Assembly (NCBI RefSeq): GCF_009914755.1
Contig: NC_060926.1
Length of the DNA: 64,000 nucleotides
Direction: 5' to 3' (one strand)
Source of the DNA: the human T2T-CHM13v2.0 reference genome, Homo sapiens
Numbering within the stretch: position 1 is the stretch's first letter; each line of letters opens with the position of its first letter. The position numbers and the translations under genes were made by a program. Below, piece after piece: positions 957 through 17,478 of the stretch. The notes under the pieces are model-generated. The model worked only from the letters and a program-made list of their open reading frames with translations. It was not told where the DNA came from and ran no database searches.

Positions 957-1850
957 TTAGAAACCTTCTTTTAATGAAAGCAAATTTTTCTTTCTCAAAA
1001 TTAGTTTAGATTTAGGGGGTACATATGCAGGCTTGTTACATGTATACAATGCATATACATAGAATGGTTTTGCAGTATGGTTTGGGCTTCTAGTGGACCC
1101 ACCCCCAATAGTAAACATTGTACCCAATAGTGATTTTTAAACCCTGACTCCCCTCCTATGCTTCCCCTTTTTCAGTTCCCCAGTGTCCATTATTTCCATC
1201 TTTATGTCCACATGTAATTTAGCTCCCACTTATGTGAGAATGTGTGGTATTTGATTATCTGATTTTGAGTGATTTCACTTAGGATAATGGCTCCAGCTCC
1301 TCCCATGTTGCTACAAAGGGTGTGATCTCATTCTCTTTTTATGGCTGCATAGTATTTCATGGTACATATATACCACATTTTCTCAACCAGTCAACTGTTG
1401 ATGAACACTTACATTGATTTCATGACTTTGCTGTTGTGAACAGTGCTTTGAGAAACATACTAGTGCAGTTGTTATTTTACACAATGATTTCTTTTCCAAG
1501 GGAAGGGAAGGAAAGGGGAGGGGAGGTGAGAGGAGCGGAGGGGAGGGGCAAGGGGAGGAGAAGTGGGGGGGGAGAGAGGGGAGAAGAGAGGAGGGGAGAA
1601 GGTGGGGGAGGGGAGGGGAAATGAGGGGGAGGGGAAAGGAGAGGGAGGATAAAGTAGGGGGAGGGGAAAAGAGGGGAGGGGGAGGGGTAGTGTGGTGGGT
1701 TTGCTGGGTGGAATGGTAGTTATATTTTTAGTTTTTTGAGAAATCTTCATATTCTTTTCCATAGAGGTTGTGTTAATTAAAATTCTCACCAACTGTATGA
1801 GAATTTGCATAGAATTTACAGGCGTTTCCTTTTCTTCACATCCATGGCAA
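957..1850 (-). mobile_element. 5'-truncated L1PB-like 3' end inserted into the older L1MA
   Basis: 'tttagatttagggggtacatatgcaggcttgttacatg' 3'-end motif; 12-bp TSD CACATTTTCTTT at 945-956 and 1851-1862. Confidence 0.8.
1498..1688 (+). repeat. Purine-rich (GGGGA/GAGG-type) low-complexity tract
   Basis: About 190 bp of almost only G and A with many G3-G7 runs, interrupting L1 sequence between 'gatttcttttcc' and 'tagtgtggtggg'. Confidence 0.95.
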
Positions 1851-1862
1851 CACATTTTCTTT

Positions 1863-2034
1863 ATCCATTCATTGTTGGATAGACACAAGGTTGATTTGAT
1901 AACTTGGTTGTTGTGAATAGTACTGCAATGAACGTGGAAGTGCAGACATCTCTTTGGCATACTGATTTCATGTCTTTTGGGTAAATACTCAGGAGTGGGA
2001 TTCCTGAATCATATAATTCTATTTAGTTTTTTTT
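1863..2034 (-). mobile_element. Old L1MA, second piece
   Basis: Resumes 'atccattcattgttgg...gggtaaatactcaggagtgggattcctgaatcatataattctatttagtttt' directly after the TSD. Confidence 0.8.
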
Positions 2035-2094
2035 AATTTCAATTTTAATTTTTTTTGAACCTACTTTATTTCAAGAGCACTTTTCTTTGAAGCT

Positions 2095-3122
2095 TTTTGT
2101 TTATCTATTTTTATTTTTGTGGGTATATTATAGAGGCATATATTTATGAGGCACATAAGATGTTTTGATACAGGCATGCAAAGAATAATAATCACATAGT
2201 AGAAAAGGGTTACCCATCTCTTCAAATATTGACCCTCTGTGTTTCAAAATATTCAATTAAATTATTTTAGTTATTCTAAAATGTACAATTAAGTTATTAT
2301 TGACTAGAGTCACCCTGTTTTGCAATCAAATAGTAAATCTTAGTCATTCTTTCTATTTTTTGTACCCATTAACCTTCCCCACTTCCCACCTCTACAACAC
2401 TCCATGACTCTTTCCAGCCATCTTTCTTTCTACTCTCTTTCTCCATAAGTTCAATTCCTTTGGTTTTTAGATCCCACAAATAAGTGAGAATAGGCCTGTT
2501 CGTCTTCCTGTGCCTGGCTTATTTCACTTAGCATCATGACCTCCAGTTCCATCCATGTTGCTGTGAATGACAGGATTGTATTCATTTTTATGGCTGAAGA
2601 GTACTCCAATCCATTATGTATATGTACAATTTTTTTAATCCATCCACCTGTTGATGGACACTTAGGTTGCTTCCATAACTTGGTTATTTTGAATAGTGTT
2701 GCAATAAACATGGGAGTATAGCCATCTATTCAATATACTGATTTTCTTTCTTTTGGGTATATGCCCAGCAGTGAGATTGCTGGATCATATGGTAACTCAA
2801 TTTTTAGTTTTTTTGAGAAACCTCCAAACTGCTCTCTATAGTGGTTGTACTAATTTACCTTCCTACCAACAATGTGCAAGGGTTCCCTTTTCTCCACTCC
2901 TCACCAGCATTTGGTATTGTCTGTCTTTTGGATAAAAACCATTTTAAATGGGGTGAGACGATATCTCATTATAGTTTTGATTTGTGTTTCTCTGATTATC
3001 AGTGATGTTCAGCACCTTTTCATATGCGTATGTCCCATTTGTATGTCTTCTTTTGAAAAGTATATATTCAGATATTTTGCCTATTTTTAATCAAATTATT
3101 AGATTTACACCTACAGAGTTGT
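2095..3122 (-). mobile_element. L1MA1-4-like 5'-truncated 3' end
   Basis: 'ttttgtgggtatattatagaggcatatatttatg...gatacaggcatgca' tail motif; ORF 2451-2711(-) [20 protein letters not shown]...WMELE matches the L1 ORF2p C-terminus. Confidence 0.85.
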
Positions 3123-3299
3123 ATCTTTTCTCAGCTTTTCCTCTCTCTTAGCTCCGTCTCAATGTCCAAGTGGGCAAGATTTGGTAAACATTGTCAAGGA
3201 TGGGAAATTCCAGGTTGTTTCTCATCTTGTAGCATCCTGAGCATGACCGAGACCAAAAAAGATACATTCTTTTTAAAATTTCTGCCTTCTTCTCACTAG

Positions 3300-3570
3300 A
3301 GTTGTCATATGGGCCAGATTGAGATGGTTGGGACACAGAGATGGAACAGATCCACTGGAGTTTGAATGCTTTTTGGAAATTGGCAGTATGAGGAATTCTG
3401 GATAGACAGATGCATAACAAATGTCAGACTGAGAGTATCTTCCCAGGTGAGGTGAGGTGGTTGGAAAGCCATTAGCATTGGTGGAAGTCCAGGTAGGGAC
3501 ACGAAGGCCTGGTGAGGAGTGAGTGACAAGTGAGTACCCTGGTTTGCAGGCAGAGCATGGTTTCAGAAAA
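3300..3570 (-). mobile_element. Possible degenerate L2 fragment
   Basis: 'ggaagtccaggtagggacacgaaggcctgg' and 'ttttggaaattggcagtatgaggaattct' resemble antisense L2 ORF2 sequence. Confidence 0.35.
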
Positions 3571-4289
3571 TCTTAGGATGAACAACAGACCATTGTTCAG
3601 AGAAACATAGGCTATCAGCACCAAGCAAATATAGTGAGAATTGATAGACTGAGGTCCATTAGAAAAACAGGAAAGGAACACAGATTTTTGTCCAGACAGT
3701 GCTTGGAAGTGAAAGAGGACACCAAACAGAATACTCTTGGAGAGATCACTCAAAACAGAAACCCAGTAATGAGAATTGGGTGGTTAGACAAAAACTGATT
3801 AACAATGAAGAAGCGAGAGCTGGTTATAAAAACAGGTTATGTACAAAAAAGAGCTGGTTATTTAAAAAATAACAGTAGTTTATAGAAATCGAGTCCTACA
3901 GGACTTACGAAACTACTTAATTCTTTGATAGAACTTTTTAAAAAGTTTCCTTAGCTATTTGATTCCAGAATCTGTGGTAGGGCTGAGCATGTACATTAAG
4001 CTTAGTTAGCATTTGGTTTGGGCACCTGATGAATGCAGAGAAATGTGTTAGCTTCCTGAGGTTCCTTTTGAGGTTTTTTCCTCTCATTCTCGGCAGGTAA
4101 TTTTTATTATTTCTGCAATTTCCATTTCTAAATTCAATGAAAGAAATTCTCAAATGATTGATTGAGCCTGAAATTCTAGTTTTGGATTTATTCTTATTAA
4201 GCAAAAGTTTATTTAACATTAAACTTCAAATATTAAGCATAGGTTAACATAGGCCAAAATATCATAATTCGTTTGTTTGAAGCTCCTAT

Positions 4290-4461
4290 TTTTGGTTTGT
4301 TGTTTGTTTTTTGAAACATGGTCACACTCTGTCACCTGGACTGGAGTGCAGTGAGGCAAACATGGCTCACTGCAGCCTGGACTTCCTGGATAATCAAGCG
4401 ATTGTCCCACCTCAGCCTCTCAAAGTGCTGGGATTACAGGCTGGAGCCTCCATGCTTTGCC
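4290..4461 (-). mobile_element. Free Alu monomer (FRAM/FLAM-like)
   Basis: Single arm only: 'cactctgtcacctggactggagtgcagtg...cctcagcctctcaaagtgctgggattacagg' preceded by a T-rich tail. Confidence 0.85.
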
Positions 4462-4692
4462 TGAAGCTGCTGTTCTGTATATTGCAGTTTAAATATTTCA
4501 CCAGAGTTGTGATTAACATCAGAAAACCTGAAACTGCTACTTATGATACCTGGCCATAATATGGTACTGGTTTCCCAGAATGCAATAGAAAGTACGTTTT
4601 TAAAGATGTATATACCACCCTTACAATAGTGATACGCTATGCTTCAATGAATAAAAGTAAAATTTCTTAATACACTCATTTTATAAATGACA

Positions 4693-5620
4693 TTTTCTGC
4701 TCATTGAATTGTGATATACATGCATAGCAGTACAAATATCACAAGTGTACAGCTCAACAAATTTCCAAAACCTGAACACACCTACATAGCCAGAGCTCAA
4801 ATTATTTTTTAAAAACAAAAATACCAAATAATACCAGCCCCTAGTAAGTATATACCTCCCAAAAGTTACCACTATCCTAATTTGTGGTATCATGGATTAG
4901 TTAGCTAATGGATTGGTTTTGTTGTGAAACATTAATGGTTTTGTTGTGATATATATATGTAGCTATGTATGCAATTATTGAATCATATAGTGTGTCTAAA
5001 TATTTCTCCCAATATTGTTTTAAAATTCACCTGTAATGTTAAAGAGATTTATAGTTCATTTAATCTTGTTGTGTAATATTTTATTTGGCATATATGCCAC
5101 AGTTCATTTACACTAATGAACATCTGGGTGGTTTCTGATTCAGCACTATTATGAATAGTGCTGCTATGAACATTTTAGTACATGTCTTTTGGAGAACTCG
5201 TGTATTTCTGGTGGGTGCAGTGGAATTTCTGGGCCGTAGGTTATACTTATGTTAAATTTTAGTGGAAGCTGCCAAATAGGCAGGGCTTGAGAGTTTAAGT
5301 TATTCTGTATCCTTGCCAATAATTATTACTTTCCATTATTACAATTTTAGCCATTCCAGAGCCTGAGTACTCATGTTATTTGGGGTTTCAACTTTCATTT
5401 CTCTAATGGCTGATGAAGCTGAACAACTTTCAGTATGTTTATTAAATATTTGGATATAATTTCTGTAAAAAATATTTGCTCAAGGCTTTTGTTCATTTTT
5501 GTGTTTGGTTGCCTATTGTTTTTTAAAATTGATTTTAAGTCTTTTATGTAATTCGATATGAGTCCTTTGTTGATTATTTATGGCACGAATGTCTTCTCCA
5601 ACTCTCTGGGTTGCCTTTTA
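4693..5620 (-). mobile_element. Ancient L1M (L1ME/L1MD-like) 3' region
   Basis: 'aagtgtacagctcaacaaatttccaaaacctgaacacacc' and 'tatgaatagtgctgctatgaacatttt' are motifs of old L1M 3' ends. Confidence 0.75.
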
Positions 5621-5996
5621 ATGTTTTTGTAATTTTTTAAATTTTTAATCTTCGTGGGTTCATAGTAGGTATATATATTTATGGGATACATGAGATGTTT
5701 TGATACAAGCATGAAATGTGAAATAATCACGTCATGGAGAATGGGATATCCATCTGCTCAAGACTTTATCCTTTGTATTACAAGCTATCCAATTACATTC
5801 CTATAATGATTTTAAAATGTACGATTATCATTGACTATAGTCACCCTGTTTTACTATCAAATAGTAGGTCATATTCATTCCTTTTATTTTTTGTACCCAT
5901 TAACTTTCCCCACATCCCACCCCCTGAAACCCTCACTACCCTTCCCAGCCTCTGGTAATCATTTTTCTATTCTCAAATCTCCAAAAGTGCCTTTGG

Positions 5997-6301
5997 TTTT
6001 TTTTTTTTTTTTTTTTTTTTTTTAGATAGATTCTCACTCTCGCCCAGGCTGGAGTGCAGTGGAGCAATCTTGGGTCGCTGCAATCTCCGCCTTCTGGGTT
6101 CAAGCAATTCTTCTGCCTCAGACTCACTGGAAGCTGGGATTACGGGTGCACGCCACCATGCCCAGCTAATTTTTGTATTTTTAGTAGAGACAGGGTTTCA
6201 GTATGTTGGCCAGGCTGATCTTGAACTCCTGACCTCAGGTGATTTTCTGCCTTGGCCTCCCAAAGTGCTGGGATTACAGACGTGAGCCACTGCACCTGAC
6301 C
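5997..6301 (-). mobile_element. AluS (Sx-like) inserted in the L1MA
   Basis: Poly-T followed by a dimeric Alu ending 'gtgagccactgcacctgacc'. Confidence 0.95.
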
Positions 6302-6626
6302 CAATTGTTTTGGTTATTAGATCCCACAAATAAGTGAGAACATGGCATGTTTGTCTTTCTGTGCCTGGCTTATCTCACTTAACATAATGGTCACCAGTTC
6401 CATTTATGTTGTTGCAAATGACAGGATCTCACTCTTTTTGTGGCTGAATAGTATTCCATTTTATATATGTACCATTGTGTCTATGTATCTGTTGTTAGAC
6501 ACTTAGATTGCTTCCAAATCCCAGCTCATGTAAATAGTGCTGCAATAAACATGGGAATGCAGATATCTTTTTGATATACTGAATTCCTTTCTTTTGGGTA
6601 TATGCATTGTAAGTATATATAAAATA

Positions 6627-6677
6627 TTAGTTTGGTGCAAAAGTAATTGTAGTTTTTGCCATTAAAAGTAATGGCAA
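6627..6677. mobile_element. MADE1 (Hsmar1-derived MITE), truncated on one side
   Basis: TA then TTAGTTTGGTGCAAAAGTAATTGTAGTTTTTGCCATTAAAAGTAATGGCAA: one terminal inverted repeat, the spacer and the start of the second repeat. Confidence 0.9.
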
Positions 6678-9600
6678 TTTAATCTTGTGCAATATTTCAT
6701 TTGGTATATATTCCACAGTTCATTTATCCTAAGGAACATCTGGGTGGTTTCTGATTCAACACTATTATGAATTTGGAGATTCCTCAAAGAAATAGTTTTA
6801 GTTCTTTAGAACTTGTGTGAGCAACTTTCAATATGTTTATTAAATATATTCAAAAGTTGTTCATACCCAGCAGTGGGATTGCTGGATTATATAGTAGATA
6901 TAGTTTTAGTTTTTTTAGGAATCTCCAAATTGTTTTCCATAGTAGATGTAATAATTTATATTCTCACTGAAAGTGTACAAGAGTTCCCTTTTCTCCACAT
7001 CCTCACCAACATTTGTTATTGTCTGTCTTTTGGACAAGTCATTTTAACTGAGGTGAGATGATATCTCATTATAGTTTTGATTTGCATTTCTCTGATAATC
7101 AATGATGAGTACCTTTTCATATGCCAGTATGATATTTTTATGTCTTCTTTTGAGAAATGTCTATTCAAATGTTTTGCCAATTTTGTATTGGATTATTAGA
7201 TTTTTTTCTATAGAGTTGTTTGAGCTCCTTATATACTCTGGTTGTTAATCCCTTGTCAGATGACTAGTTTGCAAATATTTTCTCCCATTTTGTGAGTTGT
7301 CTCTTCACTTTGTTGAGTGTATCCTTTGCTGTGCAGAGCTTTTTAACTTGATATGATCCCATTTGTCCATTTATGCTTTGGTTGCCTATGCTCATGAGGC
7401 ACTATTCAAGAAACTTTTTCCACCCTTATTATAATGATACCTGGAAAAAAAAAGAAAGAAAGAAAGAAAAGTTTGCCAAGACCAATGTCCTGGATTTTCT
7501 CCCCAGGGTTTTCTTGTAGTAGTTTCATCATTTGAAGTCTTAGACTTAAGGCTGTAATTCATTTTGATTTGATTTTTGTATATAGTGAGGGGGAGGGTTC
7601 TAGTTTCATTCTTCTACATATGAATATCCAGTTTTTATAGCATTATTTATTGAAGAGACTGACTTTTCCCTAGTTTATGTTCTTGACACCTTGGTCAAAA
7701 ATGAGTTGACTGTAGGGTGTATGGATTTTTTTCTGAGTTGTTTATTATGTTCCATTGGTCTATGTGTCTGTTTTCATGACAGTGCCATACTGTGTTGATG
7801 ACTATAACTCTGTAGCATAATCTGACTTCAGGTAATATAATTCCTCCAGTTTTGTTCTTTTTGCTCAGCATTGATTGCTTTTACTCAGATTATTCTGAGT
7901 CTTTCATGGGTTCAAATAAATTTTGGCATTGCTTTTTCTACTTTGAAGAATGTCCTTGATATTTTGATAGAGATTGTATTGAATTTGTTGATTGCTTTGC
8001 GTAGTATGGACATTTTAACAATATTCATTCTTCCAATCTATGAACATGGAATACATTTTCATTTTTTGCTATCCTCTTCAATTTCTTTCTTCAGTGTTTC
8101 ATACTTTGCATTATAGAGATTTTTCACTTCTTTGGTTAAGTTCATTGCTAGGTATTTAACTTTATATGTGGCTATTGTAAATGGGATTCCTTTTTTATTT
8201 CTTTTTCAGATTGTTCACTGTTGGCATATAGAAATGCTACTTATTTTTGTATGTTGATTTTGCATCTGGCAACTTTGGCGAGTTTTTCAATTCTAATGCT
8301 TTTTTGTGGCATCTTTAGATTTTTTCAAATATAAGATCATATCATCTGCAAATAAGGATAATTTGACTTTGTCCATTGCAGTTTGGATGCCCTTTATTTC
8401 TTTTATCTGATTGCTTTAGCTAGGACAACCAATACTATATTGAATAAGAATGGTGAAAGTGTGCATTCTTGTCATGTCCCAGATCTTAGAGGAAAGACTT
8501 TCAGTTTTTCCTCATTTAGTATGATACTAGCTGTGGGCCTGTCATATATTGCTTTTATGTTGAGGTATGTTCCTTCTATCTTCAGTTTTTTATTTAGGGT
8601 ATTTTATCATGAAAGGAAGTTGAATTTTATCAAATTCCTTTAATCATCAATGAAAGGATCATATGATTTTTATCCTTCATTCACTTGATACAATGTATCA
8701 CACTGATTAATTTGAGTATCTTGAGTCATCTTTGCATTACAGAAATAATCCCCCTTGTTCATGATGAATGATCTTTCTAATGTATTGATGAATTGGTTTG
8801 CTAGTGTTTTCTTGAGGACTTTTGCATCAATATTCACCAGAGATATTGGCCCATAGTTTTCTTTTTTTAATGTGTGTTTGTCTGGTTTTGGTATCACGGT
8901 AATACTGGCCTCATAGAATGAGTTTGAAAATGTTCTGTCCTCCTCTATATTTTGGAATAGTTTAAGTAGGATTTGTATTAGTTTTTCTTTAAACGTTTCA
9001 TAGAATTCAGCATTGAAACTAAGTCCTGGGATTTTGTTTACTGGGAGAATTTTTATTACGTTTTGATATTGTTACTTGTTATTGGTGTGTTCACCTTTTG
9101 GATTTTTTTTTATGGTTCAGTCTTTGTACGTTGTATGTGTCTAGGAATTTTACCATTTCTTCTAGATTTTTCACTTTGTGGACTTACGTTGCTCATAGAG
9201 GCCACAAATAATCCTTTGAATTTCTGGGATAGCAGTTGTAACGTCTCCATTTTCATTTCTGATTTTATTTATTTGGACCTTTTCTCATTTTTTCTTTGTC
9301 TGGCTAAAGTTTGTCAATTTTGTTTAATTTTTAAAAAAACAACTTTTTGTTTCATTGATTTTTGTTGTTTTTTATTTCAGTTTCATTTATTTCCGCTCTG
9401 ATCTTTATTATTTATTTTCTTCTAATTTTGGGTTTGGTTTGCTCTTGCTTTTATAGTTGTTTAAGGTTTAGAATTAGGTGTTTTTTGAAGTTTTTTCTCT
9501 TATTTGTTGTAGGCACTTAAAGCTACAAGCTTCCCTCTGAGTAGTGCTTTTGCTGTATCCCATAGGTTTTGGTATGTTTTGTTTCCATTGTCATTTATTT

Positions 9601-12600
9601 CAAGAAATTTTTTAGTTTCCTTCTTAATTTCTTCATTGACCCACTGGTCATTCAGGAGCATATTCTCTAATTTCTATGTATTCGTATAGTTTCCAAAACT
9701 CCTATTGTTATTAATTGCTAGTTTTATTCCATGGTGGTTAGAGAAAATGCCTGATATTATTTCAATTTTTTGTGTGTTTTAAGACTTCTTTTGTGACCTA
9801 ACATATGATCTGTCCTTGAGAATGAGCCATGTGCTGAGGAAAAGAATGCATATTGTGCAGCTGTTGGATGATATGTTCTGTAAATATCTATTAGATCCAT
9901 TTGGTCTCTAATGCAGTTTAAGTCTCATGTTTTGTTTTGTTTTTTTTTTCTCTTTTTCTGATGTTCTGTTTGGAAGATCTATCCAATGCTGAGTGTGGGG
10001 TGTTGAAGTCTCCAACTATTATTGTACTGGGGCCTATCTCTCTCTTTAGTTCTAGTAATATTTGCTTTATATATCTATGTGCTCTCATGTTGGGTGCATA
10101 TGTATTAAAAATTGTTATATATTTTTGCTCTATTGATGCTATTATCATTATATAGTGACCTTTTTCTCTTCTTACAGTTTTTGTCTTGAAATCTACTATG
10201 TCTGACATAAGAATAGCTACTTCTGTCCTTTTTTAGTTTCTATTGGCATGGAATATCTTTTTCCATCCCTTTACTTTTAGTCTACTTGTGTCTTTTTATG
10301 TAAAGTGTATTTACTGTAGGCAATAGATCAATGGGTCTTGTTTTTTTTTCATTCACTCAGCTAGTTGATATCTTCTGATTGGAAAGTTTAGTCCACTTAC
10401 ATTCAATGTTATTATTTATATGTAAGAACTTACTCCTGCCATTTTGTTATTTGTTTTCCGGTTGACATGTGACTTTCTTTCTTTCTTTCCTTCCTGTCTT
10501 TTTTTAATAGAGGTAATTTTCTCTGGTGATATGATTTTCTTTCTTGCTTCTCATTTTTTGTGTATTCATTGTATGTTTTTTGGTTTCAGGTTATGTCGAG
10601 GCTTGTAAATACTGTCTTACAACCATTATTTTCACCAGATAACAATTTAACACTATTTGCATAAAGAAACAAACAAATAAAACTAATAAAAACTGTATGC
10701 CTTAACTTCACCCTGCTTTTAAATTATTGTTATTTCTATTCATATCTTATTTTACAGTTGTGTCTTGACAAGTTGTTATAGTTATTATTCTTGATTGGTT
10801 CATCATTTGGTCTTTCTACTTAGGATAAGAGTAGTTTACACACCACAGTTACAGTTTTACAATTTCTGTGTTTTTTTGTGTGTGTGTACTTGCTATTACC
10901 AGTGAGTTTTGTTCCTTCAGGTAACTACTTATTGTTCATTAATGTCCTTTTCTTTATGATTAAAGTAATCCCTGTAACATTTTTTACAGGACAGGTCTGG
11001 TGTTGATGAAATCCCTCAGGTTTTGTTTGTGTGGGAAAGTTTTTATTTCTCCTTCATGTTTTAAAAATATTTTCACCAGATATACAATTCTAGGGTAAAA
11101 GCTTCTTTTGTCCTTCAGCAGTTTAAATATGTCATGCCACTCTCTCTCTTCTGGCCTGTAAGGTTTCCACTGAAAATCTGTTGCCAGACATATTGGATCC
11201 TCGTTGTATGTTATTTGTTTATTTTCTCTTTCTGCTTTTAGAATCTTCTCTTTATCCTTTATCTTTGGGAGTTTGATTATTAAATACTTTCAGTTAGTCT
11301 TCCTTGGGTGAAATCTGTTTGGTGTTCTATAACCTTCTTGTCCTAGGATATTGATATCTTTCTCTAGGTTTGGGAAGTTCTCTGTTATTATATATTGGAA
11401 TAAACTTTGTACCTGTATCTCTTTCTCTGTCTCCTCTTTAAGGCCAATAACTCTTAGATTTGCCTTTTGAGGCTATTTTCTAGATCTTATAGGCATGTTT
11501 CATTGCTTTTTATTATTTTTCCTTTGAACTCCTTTGTGTATTTTCAAATAACCTGTCTTCAAGCTCATTAATTCTTTCTACTGCTTTATCATTTCTACTA
11601 TTAAAGGACTCTAATGCATTCTTCAGTATGCCAGTTGCATTTTTTAGCTCCCGAATTTCTGCTTGTTTCCTGTTAATTATTTCAATCTCCTCCTTAATCT
11701 GGTAGAATCCTGAATTCCTTCTTTGTTGTCTTGAATTTCTTTAAGTTTCCTCAACACAAGTATCTTGAATTACCTATACAATAGGTCACATAATTCTGTT
11801 TCTCCAGGATTGGTCGCTGGTGCTGTATTTAGTTTATTTGGTGAGGTCATGTTTTCCCGGATGGTCTTGATACTTATAGATGTTCATCTGTGGCTGGGCA
11901 TTGAAGAGTTAGGTGTTTATTATAGTCTTCACAGCCTGGGCTTGTTTGTATCTGTCCATCTTGGGAAAGCTTTCCAGATATTTGAAATGACTTGAGTTTT
12001 GTGATTTAAGATGTATCTGTTTTATGGTGCATCCAAAACCCAGTAACACTGTGATTCTTGTAGATGCGCTGAGGTCCTACCTTGATGGTCTTGGACTAGA
12101 CCCAGGAGAATTCTCTGGATTACCAGGCAGAGATTCTTGTTTTCTTCCCTTAGTTTCTCTCAAACAAATGGAGTCTCTCCCTCTCCCTCTGTTCTGACCC
12201 ACCTGGGGGGTGGAATGACACGAGCACCCCTGTGGCCATTACCAATAGGACTGGGTCTTGTCTAAGGTTTGCTGTAACTACTTCCTGGCTACTGCCTATG
12301 TTCACTCAAGGCCATGAGGCTCTACAGTCAGCAGGTGGCAAAGCCAACTGTGCCTGTTTCCTTCCCTTTAGGGCTGTGAGGTCCTGCAGGACCTAGGCAG
12401 GTTTAGAGGTGTCATCCAGTAGTTAGGGACTAGAGTCAAAAACCTTAAACATTTACCTGGCATTCTATTTTACTGCAGCTGAGCTTGTAGGCAAACTACA
12501 AGATAGAGCATTTCCCAGTTTTCTCTCCCTTTTCTAATAACAGAGGAGCCTCGCCTCATGGCCTATGCCACCACAATTCCACTGTAAGACTACCATCAAT

Positions 12601-13891
12601 GTTTCCTTCAGGGCCAAGGGCTCTTCAGTCAGCTTGTGGTAAATGCTGGTGGCTGGGACACTCCCTTCAGGGCAGTGGACTACCCTCTGGCCCAGTGCAG
12701 ATTCAGAAATGCCATTCAATACCAAGTCCTGGAATCAGAGACCCCAAGAGCCCACTTGGTGTCTACCCACTTGTGGCCAGGCTAGTACCTAAGGTGCAAG
12801 ACAAAGTCTCTTTCACTATTCCCTCTGCTTTTCTCAAGATGGAGTCTCACATCAAAGCCACAACAGCTGGGAATGTGCTCAGTCTCACCTGAAACCAGCA
12901 AGTCTCTGACCCTCAATGTAGTACCTGGGTATATTGTTGGTTATTCAGAGCCCAAGGGCTCTTCAGTTTGCAGGTGATAAATCCTACCAGGACTGGATCC
13001 TTCCCTTCAAGACACTGGGTTCCCTTCTGGCCCAGAGTGTCTAGAAAAGTTGCACAGGAACTAGGACCTGAAATGACAGCCTCACAACTCTTGACCAGTG
13101 CCTATCCTGCTGTGGCTGAGTTGGTATCCAAAGTGCAAGACAGTCCCCCCACTCTTCCCGCTGCTCTGCTCAAGTAGTAGGAAGGAGTCTCTTTTGGAGC
13201 TGTGAGCTGTGCAGCCTGGGGTTAAAGGAGGGATGATGTCAGCACTGCCTTACCTTCCCTGGCTGTCTTAGTAGTTTGTGTGCCCTCTCAGTCCTCTGGT
13301 TCTAGGCCCAGTTCAACCCTAGGACTCACCTAAAAGTTGTAATCCTTGTTGTCTAAGCTGCCTTTCAAGTTTATCAGAGCCCCGGAGGAGAGCTTTAGCC
13401 CACAATGGCAAGGCTTTCAGGAAGTCAAATTCTGCCTGCTGGAATTGGCAATTTTCCTCTGTCTAGGGCTTGTTTAAATGCTTAAATGCTCCCTCCATGG
13501 GTGGATGCCAGCTGAGTTTGATCCAGTTTTGCTTTCTTCTATAACAGGATAGCACTGTGTTCAATGCCTCAAAATTGCTGCACTCTCCCTCTCTCTATTG
13601 CACAGAAACACTCCACACCACACTGCTGCTGCCAGAGAATGAGGGAAGAGTGGTGTCTGTAATTTGAGACTGTTTTCTCTACCTCTTCAGTACCTCTTTC
13701 AGTGATATGAAGTTAAAACCAACTACGATTGCTCATCTGACTTTTTGATCTTATAAAGGTTTCTGTTCGTTTGTGTTTGTTTGTTTTTTAGTGTAGATAG
13801 TTGTTAAATTGATATCCTTGTGGTTGAGATGACAGGAGAGGTTTCTCTTCTGCCATCTTGATCCATCCCTCTCCTCTATTTTTAGTTTTTT

Positions 13892-14310
13892 GAGGAACTC
13901 TATACAATTTTCCATAATGGCTGTACTAATTTGTATTCCTATCAACTGAGTAATCAATTTCCCATTTGCCCACATCCTGGCCAACACTGTTATCTTTCAT
14001 CTTTTTCAAAATATGCATTCTGACAGGTACTAGATAAGAGCTTATGGTTTTAATGGGCATTTCTCTAATGATTAGTGATGTTGAGCATTTTTTAATTTAT
14101 CCATTGACCTCTTGTATGTTTTCTTTTGAAAAATACCTATTCAGGTCCCTTGTCCAGTTTTAAATAATGTTGTTTTCTTTCTATAGAGTGTTTTGAGTTA
14201 CTTATATATTTTGTATATTAACCCCTTATCTGATGCATGGCTTTCAGAAATGTTTCCTGAATCTGTAGTTTGTCTCTTCACTCTGTTAATTGTTTCTTTT
14301 GTTGTGTATT
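13892..14310 (-). mobile_element. Old L1MA, third piece (continuation of 1863-2034)
   Basis: 'gaggaactctatacaattttccataatggctgtactaattt' is the sequence expected directly after '...attctatttttagttttt' in L1MA. Confidence 0.8.
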
Positions 14311-17139
14311 TTATTTTTTTCTTTAACTAGACTACATTATTGTGGTTGGTTGTTTAAAATATCTCCTTCAACATACTTACTAGTCCTCCAAGATATCATT
14401 ACAATAAGTACCCAAATCTTTATCTCGAACATACCCTCCTCACCAGGCAAAAAGTAATGGACATTTTCTGTAGTCTTAAGTGATTATTCCTGATTAATGT
14501 TTATGCCATATTGATTTTGCAAGAAGTTAACTTCTGTCATTCTCCGCAACATGTTCAACAAATAATGCCATTAAGCAGCCTTGGAAAAATATATTCCTAT
14601 AAAAGTCTTTCATCTGTAAGGTAAAAATAACTTATAAGATTATATAGTATATTTGAAGAAGTCTGGTAAGTACACATTATGTCTTTCTTACCTTCTCTGA
14701 TTTGATTGGGAAATAAATAGCATTTAAGCATGCAATAAAAAAGATTGTCTTCAGAGAGCAATTATGTATAAGATCACATTTATGAATACTATACTATGAT
14801 CAATTTAATATCTTTTGTGGAAAAGTCAATTATTAAAATAAGCATTTTACCTTATTTAGATTAAAAAGAGAAAAATGCTTTGGTGACAAAGAAAACATAT
14901 TTATAAACCAAGTAAATAAATATGGGAATATAAGTGCTTATAAATTGTGCATTGCTCTGTTAAATGAACCATTTAAAGGAGACAGAACTAGTTGCCATAG
15001 CTATTTTATAAAATCAAACATCGATTTCAGTTTACTTTTGTATCCTTGTAGTAGAACTTAATAAGACCAGTAACTCACATTTTATCAGTTCAATTGATTG
15101 AAACTGGATTTTTGCTTTTAAATCACATGTTAAGATTGCAAAGAGATGAAACTTGCCTCAAATACCTTATTTTATTTCTACTCATGTTGGACATGAGTGC
15201 CTTTATCTTTTAATTATGAGACACATTTTTCTTTTTTTTGTTTTTCAACATCCTTTCTGCTTTCCAGGTTTACCATTTTAGAATGTACCATTGACTAGAC
15301 TTTCCATTCCAAACTAGTATCTTCAAAATACTCAGTGAAATTTATCAGTTCTGTATCTTCAGGAAATACAGCTGGGCCTTCCTTGGCCAAAATGTAAACT
15401 ATCTGCTCCAGTTCTCTAGGCTTTTTTTTCTATTATCCTATTTTTTTCCAGGTGTTTTTGTTTGTTTGTTTTCTCACCTAACCAGTATACATTTCACCCA
15501 CTAAACACTTGTGTCACAAATATAGAATCTCTTCCTTTTTTAGACAGTATTTTTTAAAGAACATTTATTTATTTTTGTTAGCTATTGACAAATTATAATT
15601 GTATGCACTTACGGAGTACAAAGTGATGCTATAATATTTGTATACAATATGGAATGATTGAATTGAGCTAATTAACATAACCATCACCTCAAAAATTATT
15701 TATTTCTCCTGTCTAAATGAAACACTGTACTCTTTTATCAATATCCACCTATTACCCTCCCCCACAGTCGCTGGTTTCTGGTAACCACAGTTCTGCTTTC
15801 TTCCGTGTTAGCTTCTTAGCTTCCACATACAAGAACATGTGGCCTTTGTCTTTCTATAGCTGGCTTATTTTACTTAGCATAATGTCCTCCACACTCATAT
15901 ATGTTGTTGCAAATGATATAATTTCCCTCTTTGTAAAGGCTGAATAGAATTTCATTCTGTGTATATACTACGTTTTTGTCCATTAATTGACTGATGAAGG
16001 TTTATTCCAAAACTTGACAATTATAAATACAGCTACAATAAACATGGAAGTGCAGGTATCTCCTTGACATATTGATTTCAAATCCTTTAGATATACTAGT
16101 GAAATTGTATTTTTACTTTTTTCAGAAGCCTCCATACAGTGTTCACCAATGGTTGTACCAAATTACATTCCCAACGATAGTCTAGTAGGGTTCTCTTTCT
16201 CCACACCCTCCCCTACACTTGTTATCTTTCATCTTTTTGATAATAGCTATCCTGATAAGTGTAAGGACATACCTCATTGTTTTAATATGCATTTCCCCAA
16301 TGATTAGAGATGTCGAACATTTTTTAAATGTATCTGTCGGCCATTTGAATGTCTTCTTTTAAGAAATATCTGCTCTGCTCATTTGCCCATTTTTTAAATC
16401 AGGTTATTTGTTTGCTTTCTATTGAATTGTTTGCATTTCATATATATTTTGAATATTAACTCCTTATTAGATGTATGGCTTGCAAATATTTTCTCTCAAT
16501 TCATAGGCTGCATCTTCATTCTGTTAATTTTTTTCTTTACCCTACAGAAGTTTTAAGTGTGATATAATCCTATTTCTCTATTTTTGGTTTTGTTCCCTGA
16601 GCTATCATGGTCAAACGTAAAACATTGTCCAGACAATTGTTGTATAGTTTTCCCCTGTTCTTTTTCTCTTTTAGTAGTTTTACAGTTTCACTTTTTACAT
16701 CAATTTTTAACCCAGTTTGAGTCGCTTTTGTATATGGCATGAGATGAGGGTTCAATTTTATTCTTTTGCATGTGAATACCCAAATTTCCCCATATCCTTT
16801 ATTGAAGAGACTGTCTTTTTTCTATATTGTGTTTTAGACACCTTTATCAAAAATCAATTGACAGTGAATAAATGGGGTTTTTTTTTTTTGGCTCTCTATT
16901 CTGTTCCATTGGTTGATGGATGTGTCTATTCTTATGCCAGTACCATGCTGTTTTAATTACTATCATTTTGTAATATATTTTGAATTCAGATAGTGTAATG
17001 CCTCCAGCTTTGTTTGTTTCAGGATGCAAGATTGTCTTGGAAATTTGTACTTTTTTGTGGTTTTATATAAATTTTAGTTATTTTTCCATTTCTGTGAAAA
17101 ATGAATTTACATTTCGGTAGAATTTTCATCAATATGTAG

Positions 17140-17478
<339 letters not shown>

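What the first reader, a model, noticed from the sequence alone, without database searches (positions are those of the whole stretch)
2018..13891. Candidate ancient L1MA 3' transduction: one TSD brackets a full-length L1 plus ~3.6 kb of non-self DNA
Seen: the old L1MA host breaks at 'TCTATTTAGTTTTTTT' (2018-2034) and resumes collinearly after 'TCTATTTTTAGTTTTTT' (13875-13891), which abuts the 5' terminus of the full-length L1MA1-3 at 13874. I see no copy of this TSD at that L1's own 3' end (~5625). The far end of the block carries a minus-strand AATAAA (2065-2070) followed by a degenerate A tail (2031-2056). Between lie an older L1M fragment, an Alu monomer, unique DNA and a possible L2 relic. 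The L1M and L2 families are older than the host L1MA, so they could not have inserted into it individually. Established: L1 transcripts can read past their weak poly(A) site and mobilise 3' flanking DNA. Inference: 2035-13874 arrived as a single ~11-kb retrotransposition event, an unusually long and old transduction that family-by-family annotation would miss.
Basis: partly seen in the sequence, partly recalled or inferred. Interest (0 to 1): 0.8.

Follow-up and report, generated by a model that had tools for sequence, protein, structure and literature searches.

The report
L1 carrying neighbour-locus DNA, chimeric tail

Summary
An old minus-strand host L1 breaks at 2034 and resumes at 13875. 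The two pieces overlap by 16-17 nt in L1 coordinates, so one target-site duplication brackets 2035-13874.

Window 3123-5620 has exactly one long paralogue in the genome, at C2:154019616-154022062 (82% identity, same strand, about 170 kb upstream). There it lies directly 3' of a full-length L1 collinear with 5625-13874. That L1 has its own exact 12-nt duplication, so it is the source.

Only 2.5 kb (3123-5624) is copied flank. The terminal 1.07-kb L1 piece (2057-3122) is absent at the source. It is not an older L1M: it is the same type and about the same age as the full-length L1.

Best reading (about 0.45): one reverse-transcription event began on a truncated L1 RNA and switched to a read-through transcript of the neighbouring L1. 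Rivals are that the piece once sat at the source and was lost, two successive insertions, or DNA repair. A source this close has a chance of about 1e-4 under random integration and is unexplained. Both mechanisms are known kinds; interest is moderate.

The parts
1856..2034 (-). Left piece of the old host L1 (the 3'-ward part in L1 sense)
   Evidence: rc(1690-2034) aligns to ruler positions 309-494 at 76%; 1912-1986 matches the full-length L1 on the minus strand.
2018..2034 (-). Target-site duplication, copy next to the poly(A) tail
   Evidence: same host L1 positions as 13875-13891.
2035..2056 (-). Degenerate poly(A) tail of the whole composite
   Evidence: A-rich run in sense between the 36-nt tail and the duplication.
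2057..2092 (-). 36-nt non-L1 tail behind the terminal L1 piece, holding AATAAA (2065-2070)
   Evidence: extends past the point where both full-length copies end; no match at the source locus (score 11 against a shuffle mean of 10.8); the 91-nt probe finds only itself in the genome.
2093..3122 (-). Piece Y: a 5'-truncated L1 3' end (1,030 bp), same type as the full-length L1, absent at the source
   Evidence: collinear with the full-length L1 on the minus strand; not at the paralogue; near-star relation to both full-length copies.
3123..5611 (-). Copied 3' flank of the source L1 (unique DNA, Alu monomer 4289-4455, old L1-like fragment 5058-5611). The source locus lies outside the window at C2:154019616-154029395 (window places -174384 to -164605): the same 2.5-kb flank plus a full-length L1 with its own exact 12-nt duplication at C2:154022057-068 and 154029384-395.
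   Evidence: 82% over query 3-2497 of 2498; 3125-5951 matches paralogue 14616-17410 at 81%; p-distance 0.152.
5612..5622 (-). Decayed copy of the source L1's own 3' target-site duplication, carried along with the flank
   Evidence: aligns to the exact 12-nt repeat at the source.
5623..13874 (-). Element X: full-length L1 (A-rich 3' end, 3'UTR, broken ORF2 and ORF1, about 1.9-kb 5'UTR). Its 5' terminus abuts the duplication.
   Evidence: collinear with the paralogue L1 to within about 100 bp of its 5' end; 5' ends align. ORF1 dsRBD-like domain at 10984-11289 (E 5e-15) and endonuclease domain at 9918-10232 (E 2e-5).
5997..6302 (-). Alu inserted into X later (absent from Y and from the source L1)
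6605..6863 (-). 258-bp patch inside X, of uncertain timing: a MADE1-like half, two pieces of the copied flank and an inverted L1 bit
13875..13891 (-). Target-site duplication, copy next to the L1 5' end
13875..14306 (-). Right piece of the old host L1
   Evidence: 13877-14306 matches L1 positions 6542-6974 on the minus strand at 69%..

Best explanation
A single target-primed reverse transcription event placed a composite of about 11.2 kb into an old host L1.

Shown:
- One 16-17-nt duplication and one A tail bracket the block.
- The full-length L1 (X) and the 2.5 kb behind it are a copy of the L1 locus 167-177 kb upstream.
- The copy starts at the L1 5' terminus.
- It carries only the 3' copy of the source's own duplication.

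Inferred:
- Reverse transcription started on the poly(A) of a 5'-truncated L1 RNA, which gave piece Y and its 36-nt tail.
- After about 1.07 kb the enzyme switched template to a read-through transcript of the neighbouring L1. Alternatively, the two RNAs had been ligated beforehand.
- It entered that transcript at an internal, non-polyadenylated point 2.5 kb past that L1.
- It then ran through the flank and the whole L1 to its 5' end.

Because the source is so near, the second template may have been an RNA still held at its site of transcription.
For: - Duplication and host contiguity.
- Unique paralogue: 1 of 68 non-self matches covers the whole 2498-nt probe (40 of 5052 candidates were scored).
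- A 281-nt probe across the flank/L1 junction is spanned only by itself and the paralogue, 2 of 40 scored matches.
- Collinearity extends through the whole L1.
- The source has an exact 12-nt repeat at both of its L1 ends. The window copy keeps only the 3' one.
- X is specifically related to the source L1 along its body. The pair shares 49 derived sites in 3210 columns, the highest of 21 pairs (the others range 13-39). It ranks first in both halves of the body.
- Lineage-private changes are equal in the two copies: 231 against 226 in 3134 columns.
- Homology to the source stops at Y's 5' end.
- No AATAAA or ATTAAA lies within 50 nt of that junction, and there is no A run there. Three hexamers conserved in both copies were bypassed further up the flank.
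- Y and X+flank have the same orientation with no poly(A) between them. This is the layout described for [RNA]/L1 chimeras (PMC13174262; abstract, section 10 and passages read).
- Y is nearly equidistant from both full-length copies: unique sites 74, 59 and 58 in 726 columns.
Against: - No species alignment was available, so simultaneous arrival of Y and X+flank is not shown.
- Y carries somewhat more private changes than the two copies (63 against 48 and 48 in 726 columns). This fits an older Y or a diverged Y source as well as chance.
- The known chimeras that I read about have small RNAs, Alu or mRNA pieces as 5' partner. None there has a 10-kb L1 read-through RNA.
- The 4-nt CAAC overlap at the junction is weak evidence. 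It also fits ordinary 5' junctions and end joining.
- The flank is less diverged than the L1: p 0.152 against 0.187 for the L1 3' part and 0.205 for the body. A single copying event does not predict this, and I cannot explain it.
Confidence: 0.45

Rival explanations
1. Piece Y sat 2.5 kb downstream of the source L1. The transcript read through to the poly(A) signal in Y's tail, and the whole RNA was retrotransposed. Y has since vanished from the source, either because that allele was never fixed or by a precise deletion between its own duplications.
For: - Y's tail holds AATAAA 8 nt before the A tail.
- There is one duplication.
- Y may be slightly older than the copying event (63 against 48 private sites).
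- Homology stopping exactly at Y's 5' end is what an empty insertion site would look like.
Against: - Y is absent at the only paralogue in the genome.
- Its 36-nt tail has no match beyond the junction there (54.8% of 500 shuffles score as high).
- The model needs an extra loss event.
- It also needs a random integration to land within about 177 kb of its source. The chance is about 1e-4 on my own uniform null, with no paper checked.
Confidence: 0.2
2. Two successive insertions. First came a canonical transduction of X plus 2.5 kb that ended in its own A tail. Later Y inserted at the 5' edge of that tail, in the same orientation, and took over the tail.
For: A tails are L1 endonuclease targets (recalled). 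The orientation and position of Y fit such a nested hit.
Against: - No A run and no duplication remain at Y's 5' side. No word of 6 nt or more is shared between 2000-2060 and 3100-3180.
- No poly(A) hexamer lies near the end of the flank in either copy.
- Y is not younger than the copies.
- The proximity of the source remains a coincidence.
Confidence: 0.1
3. DNA repair, with no RNA copy of the flank. An ordinary full-length L1 occupied 2035-13874 (its 5' end at 13874, with Y as its 3' end). A break formed at the L1 position of Y's 5' end. One end invaded the similar L1 170 kb away and copied that L1's 3' part and 2.5 kb of flank. It then rejoined Y by microhomology.
For: - It explains the nearby donor in cis, the missing poly(A) at the flank/Y junction and the CAAC overlap.
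- It explains the duplicated L1 3' part.
- Y has more private changes than the copied tract (63 against 48).
- Repair of a LINE break from endogenous LINEs is known (recalled; the papers found were not read).
Against: - Its main prediction failed. The L1 body in the window is not older than the source L1: 231 against 226 private sites in 3134 columns, and 42 against 44 in the supposed converted tract.
- The window body shares more derived sites with the source L1 than any other of 21 pairs.
- There is no sharp change of divergence inside the L1. The 2-lnL interval for a change point is 4230-7400.
Confidence: 0.1

Closest known systems
L1 3' transduction (read-through of the L1 poly(A) site, flank carried to the new site). 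Mechanism recalled. Lengths in polymorphic human cases from PMC9311842, passages read: 8-997 bp, median 63, 268 high-confidence events, limited by short reads.
   Same: The L1 is followed by the 3' flank of its parent inside one target-site duplication. The parent has its own duplication, and the offspring keeps only the parent's 3' copy.
   Different: The flank does not end at a poly(A) signal followed by an A tail. It runs into a second L1 piece that the source lacks. At 2.5 kb it is long compared with the polymorphic cases cited. The offspring lies about 170 kb from its parent on the same strand.
[RNA]/L1 3' chimeric insertions such as U6/L1, formed by template switching or RNA ligation (PMC13174262; abstract, section 10 and passages read)
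   Same: A 5'-truncated L1 3' end with an A tail, a second RNA copy fused to its 5' end in the same orientation, no poly(A) between them, and one duplication around both.
   Different: The 5' partner is a roughly 10-kb read-through transcript of another full-length L1, not a small RNA, Alu or mRNA piece. It was entered at an internal point rather than at a defined RNA 3' end.
Twin priming (5'-inverted L1 insertions; recalled)
   Same: Two L1 segments inside one duplication.
   Different: Twin priming inverts the 5' segment. Here all segments are in the same orientation, and unique flank lies between them.
Break repair copying from a dispersed LINE with end joining on the other side (recalled; not read here)
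   Same: A nearby donor in cis, a microhomology junction, and duplication of the L1 3' part.
   Different: The polarised substitution counts and the shared derived sites do not show a separate older element in the window.

Membership tests
L1 insertion by target-primed reverse transcription | Target-site duplication of about 7-20 bp flanking the insert | tested here: met
   16-17 nt. The host pieces overlap at ruler positions 308-326.
L1 insertion by target-primed reverse transcription | A tail at the 3' end, next to the duplication | tested here: met
   The degenerate A-rich run at 2035-2056 merges into the A-rich start of the duplication.
L1 insertion by target-primed reverse transcription | T-rich endonuclease site (TTTT/AA-like) at the nick | tested here: inconclusive
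   The nicked strand reads T6/GA: a T run followed by GA rather than AA. The consensus is recalled.
L1 3' transduction | The DNA behind the L1 matches the 3' flank of another L1 elsewhere | tested here: met
   82% over 2495 of 2498 nt, directly 3' of a collinear full-length L1.
L1 3' transduction | The source has its own duplication, and the offspring carries only the 3' copy and starts at the L1 5' end | tested here: met
   An exact 12-nt repeat lies at both ends of the source L1. A decayed copy is at 5612-5622 and none at 13874.
L1 3' transduction | The transduced segment ends at a downstream poly(A) signal of the source locus and is followed directly by the A tail | tested here: not met
   The flank ends at 3123 against Y's 5' end. 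There is no hexamer within 50 nt and no A run. Y and its tail are not at the source.
[RNA]/L1 3' chimera | A 5'-truncated L1 with an A tail at the 3' side, a second RNA copy fused 5' in sense orientation, and one duplication | tested here: met
[RNA]/L1 3' chimera | Both parts arrive together in species alignments | not testable with these tools
   No other mammalian genome was available. Internal dating gives Y private sites 63 against 48 and 48 in 726 columns.
Twin priming | The 5' segment is inverted relative to the 3' segment | tested here: not met
   All L1 segments match the full-length L1 on the same (minus) strand.
DNA-level segmental duplication | Breakpoints unrelated to element ends, and no A tail or duplication | tested here: not met
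   The copy begins within about 5 nt of the L1 5' terminus and sits inside a duplication with an A tail.

The most novel reading that the evidence does not exclude
The L1 reverse transcriptase, working on chromatin at the host site, switched from its own L1 RNA to a nascent, unprocessed read-through transcript still tethered at a full-length L1 about 170 kb away in the same intron. Retro-copying of flanking DNA could then be local. Template choice would depend on nuclear proximity, not only on the cytoplasmic RNP.
Probability: 0.25. Interest if true: 0.6.

Novelty: new member of a known kind. Interest (0 to 1): 0.38.

Why it matters
It is a worked, datable example of an old L1 moving 2.5 kb of non-L1 DNA, with source and offspring both still readable. 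Family-by-family repeat annotation would list it as unrelated fragments.

Two features go beyond the textbook case: the second L1 piece at the tail, and a source only about 170 kb away. If a genome-wide survey found more such pairs, they would bear on how the L1 reverse transcriptase picks and changes templates. As a single locus it is a curiosity rather than a new principle.

Tried and rejected
1. My first by-eye reading took 2470-3120 to be inverted relative to 2100-2465 (twin priming). blastn against the full-length L1 showed all pieces collinear on the minus strand, so this was dropped.

2. Y as a copy of X's own 3' end from the same RNA was rejected. Y's 36-nt tail differs from the flank behind both full-length copies.

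3. The search for Y's source found nothing. A 91-nt probe over the tail found only itself, with 1 candidate. Y's best genomic matches are 76-80% identical, with 40 of 9377 candidates scored.

4. The DNA-repair model looked promising at first:
   - blast identities were 81% for the flank against 77% for the body.
   - Y had more private sites than the copies.
   - A first count gave 108 against 85 in 1093 columns (p 0.11).
   It failed with more reference copies (231 against 226) and on shared derived sites.

5. A polarisation anchored on the window copy was biased. It gave 36 against 62 in the tract, where unbiased alignments give 48/48, 57/64 and 42/44. It was not used.

6. One of six long reference copies (chrY, L038+L054) was dropped. 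It is a near-duplicate in structure of the chrX copy.

7. I could not show that an old L1 runs on across the source L1. The right flank of the source gave no blast hit. The source's insertion status therefore rests on the 12-nt repeat.

8. No other offspring with this flank was found. These are lower bounds, since only 40 candidates were scored per search.

9. Tools and sources that were unavailable or unused:
   - The search of earlier findings was not open.
   - 'GALNT13' does not occur in the 4 held supplement files of PMC13174262. I could not search them by coordinate, so the locus may still be listed there.
   - No repeat library was available, so no subfamily name was tested.
Full report
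**Observation**

blastn of the reverse complement of 5625-13874 against the window shows that every L1 piece here lies on the minus strand. These are the host pieces (1912-1986 and 13877-14306), the 1-kb piece at 2108-3122 (called Y below) and the full-length element (X).

I used Y as a coordinate ruler. On it, the right host piece ends at position 326 and the left host piece begins at about 308. The host pieces are therefore adjacent and overlap by 16-17 nt. This is a real target-site duplication around 2035-13874, next to a degenerate A tail (2035-2056) and a minus-strand AATAAA (2065-2070).

X has no such repeat at its own 3' end: the longest shared word is 7 nt. Y has none at its own ends: no shared word of 6 nt or more.

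X is full length in architecture:
- An ORF1 dsRBD-like remnant lies at 10984-11289 (E 5e-15).
- An endonuclease remnant lies at 9918-10232 (E 2e-5, 24.8 bits against a cut-off of 24.5).
- About 1.9 kb lies 5' of ORF1.
- 2 of the 5 open frames scanned hit L1 families.

**The source locus**

I searched the window's own genome with 3123-5620. That gave 69 matches, with 40 of 5052 candidates scored:
- One is the query itself.
- One covers the whole query: C2:154019616-154022062, plus strand, 82%, query positions 3-2497.
- One is a 99-nt match inside X.
- The other 66 cover only the Alu-monomer part, at about query 1164-1363.

I fetched 40 kb around the paralogue. The window and that region are collinear from 3125 to 13758 in four blocks: 81%, 81%, 77% and 73% identity. 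The paralogue is therefore a full-length L1 with the same 2.5 kb behind its 3' end.

A 281-nt probe across the flank/L1 junction is spanned only by itself and the paralogue. The other 38 of 40 scored matches start at query position 175 or later, in L1 sequence.

The paralogue L1 is flanked by an exact 12-nt repeat at C2:154022057-068 and 154029384-395. That repeat abuts its A tail on one side and its 5' end on the other. The window copy keeps a decayed version of the 3' repeat at 5612-5622 and none at its 5' end. There, X starts within about 5 nt of the paralogue L1's 5' terminus and directly abuts the host duplication.

The paralogue is therefore an ordinary insertion and the source. The window copy is derived, and it begins where an L1 transcript begins.

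**What does not fit a textbook transduction**

Homology to the source stops at 3123, exactly at Y's 5' end. Left of C2:154019616 the source continues with unrelated DNA.

Y's L1 part ends at 2093 and is followed by 36 non-L1 nt that hold the AATAAA. That tail has no match within 700 nt of the source junction. Its local score is 11; shuffles average 10.8 with sd 1.5, and 54.8% of 500 shuffles do as well. A genome search with 91 nt over the tail finds only itself.

No AATAAA or ATTAAA lies within 50 nt of the flank's end, and no A run separates the flank from Y. Three hexamers conserved in both copies were passed earlier in the flank. The copied flank is therefore 2.5 kb, and the final 1.07 kb has a different origin.

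**Y is not an older family**

In 726 columns where Y, X and the source L1 all align:
- 517 are identical in all three.
- 74 are unique to Y.
- 59 are unique to X.
- 58 are unique to the source L1.
- 18 differ in all three.

Polarised with 29 other genomic copies, private changes are 63 (Y), 48 (X) and 48 (source). Pairwise shared-derived counts are 5, 6 and 6.

Y is the same L1 type and at most modestly older.

**Testing a DNA-repair alternative**

The source is only 167-177 kb away on the same strand. Under a uniform null for integration, that has a probability of about 2 x 177 kb / 3.1 Gb, or roughly 1e-4. This is my own calculation; I read no paper on local bias.

A repair model would explain the proximity. 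In it, an ordinary full-length L1 breaks at Y's 5' end, copies from the neighbouring L1 into its flank, and rejoins by microhomology. The model predicts that X's body is a separate and probably older element.

First signs pointed that way: 81% identity for the flank against 77% for the body, and 108 against 85 derived sites in 1093 columns (p 0.11). With five independent long reference copies, the window and source lineages carry equal numbers of private changes:
- Body: 231 against 226 in 3134 columns, p 0.85.
- 3' tract: 42 against 44 in 647 columns.

The X-source pair also has the most shared derived sites of all 21 pairs. It has 49 of 3210 columns against 13-39 for the others, and it ranks first in both halves of the body. 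The whole of X therefore looks like a copy of the source L1. The repair model keeps little support.

One anomaly remains. The flank is less diverged than the L1, with no sharp boundary:
- Flank: p 0.152 +/- 0.008.
- L1 3' part: 0.187.
- L1 body: 0.205.
- The non-CpG values are 0.127, 0.161 and 0.177.
- The 2-lnL interval for a change point is 4230-7400.

**Mechanism**

The layout is a truncated L1 3' end with an A tail, a second RNA copy fused 5' of it in the same orientation, no poly(A) between them, and one duplication. This is the layout described for [RNA]/L1 chimeras, which are made by template switching or by RNA ligation (PMC13174262; abstract, section 10 and passages read).

I therefore favour one reverse-transcription event that began on a truncated L1 RNA and moved to a read-through transcript of the neighbouring L1. 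The 4-nt CAAC overlap at the junction is compatible but weak.

My confidence is about 0.45 in this mechanism. It is about 0.85 in the narrower claim that X plus 2.5 kb is an RNA-mediated copy of the upstream locus inside one duplication.

The rivals are:
- A later Y insertion at the old A tail (0.1).
- DNA repair (0.1).

The proximity of the source favours a local template, such as a nascent RNA, but it is a single observation.

**Age**

K2P between the two copies is 0.173 for the flank and about 0.22-0.24 for the L1. That is 0.09-0.12 per lineage. At a recalled neutral rate of about 2.2e-9 per site per year, the event is roughly 40-55 million years old.

It is younger than the Alu monomer, which both copies share. 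It is older than the Alu at 5997-6302, which is in the window copy only.

**Verdict**

The finding is a new example of known kinds of event (3' flank mobilisation and chimeric L1 insertion) with an unexplained nearby source. Interest is moderate.

Noticed in passing
window 6605-6863: A 258-bp patch interrupts X at a TA with no loss of L1 bases. It holds a MADE1-like half, two pieces of the copied 3' flank and an inverted bit of nearby L1. The two flank pieces are 99 nt (89% to window 5058-5156, 88% to the source flank) and 30 nt (93% to both). The 99-nt piece is about equidistant from both flank copies, so the patch dates to about the time of the event. It looks like multiple template jumps, but the source L1 has a deletion at that place, so timing and origin stay open.
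   Followed up: partly
L010, about C2:154022537-154022561 (source L1): The source L1 lacks about 330 bp of ORF2 3' sequence that both X and Y have. This is a later deletion in the source. It spans the position of the patch in X.
   Followed up: partly
window 3125-5611 versus 5650-13874: The copied flank is clearly less diverged from the source (p 0.152; about 0.095-0.10 in its leftmost 700 bp) than the L1 (0.187-0.26). The difference persists after removing CpG-type columns, and the boundary is not sharp. Later gene conversion between the two loci, rate differences or constraint are possible causes; none was tested.
   Followed up: partly
window 7416-7471: A 56-nt insertion in X relative to the source L1: about 27 nt of unrelated sequence followed by an A/GAAA-rich run on the plus strand. 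It may be a tiny tailed retro-insertion or a microsatellite.
   Followed up: no
window 1500-1855: A GA-rich simple repeat (1500-1690) is followed by another old L1 fragment (1695-1855). That fragment covers the same L1 region as the start of the right host piece, including a third copy of the duplication-like motif at about 1722-1738. It is only 75% identical to the host piece over 73 nt, so it is a separate old fragment and not part of the duplication.
   Followed up: partly
L010, about C2:154022069-154022100: The A tail of the source L1 contains a run of nine T between two A runs. This is odd for a poly(A) tail.
   Followed up: no
L026+L052 (chrX) and L038+L054 (chrY): Two reference L1 copies, one on C23 and one on C24, show almost the same block structure and coordinates against X. 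They are presumably one insertion in X-Y shared sequence, so they were counted once.
   Followed up: no
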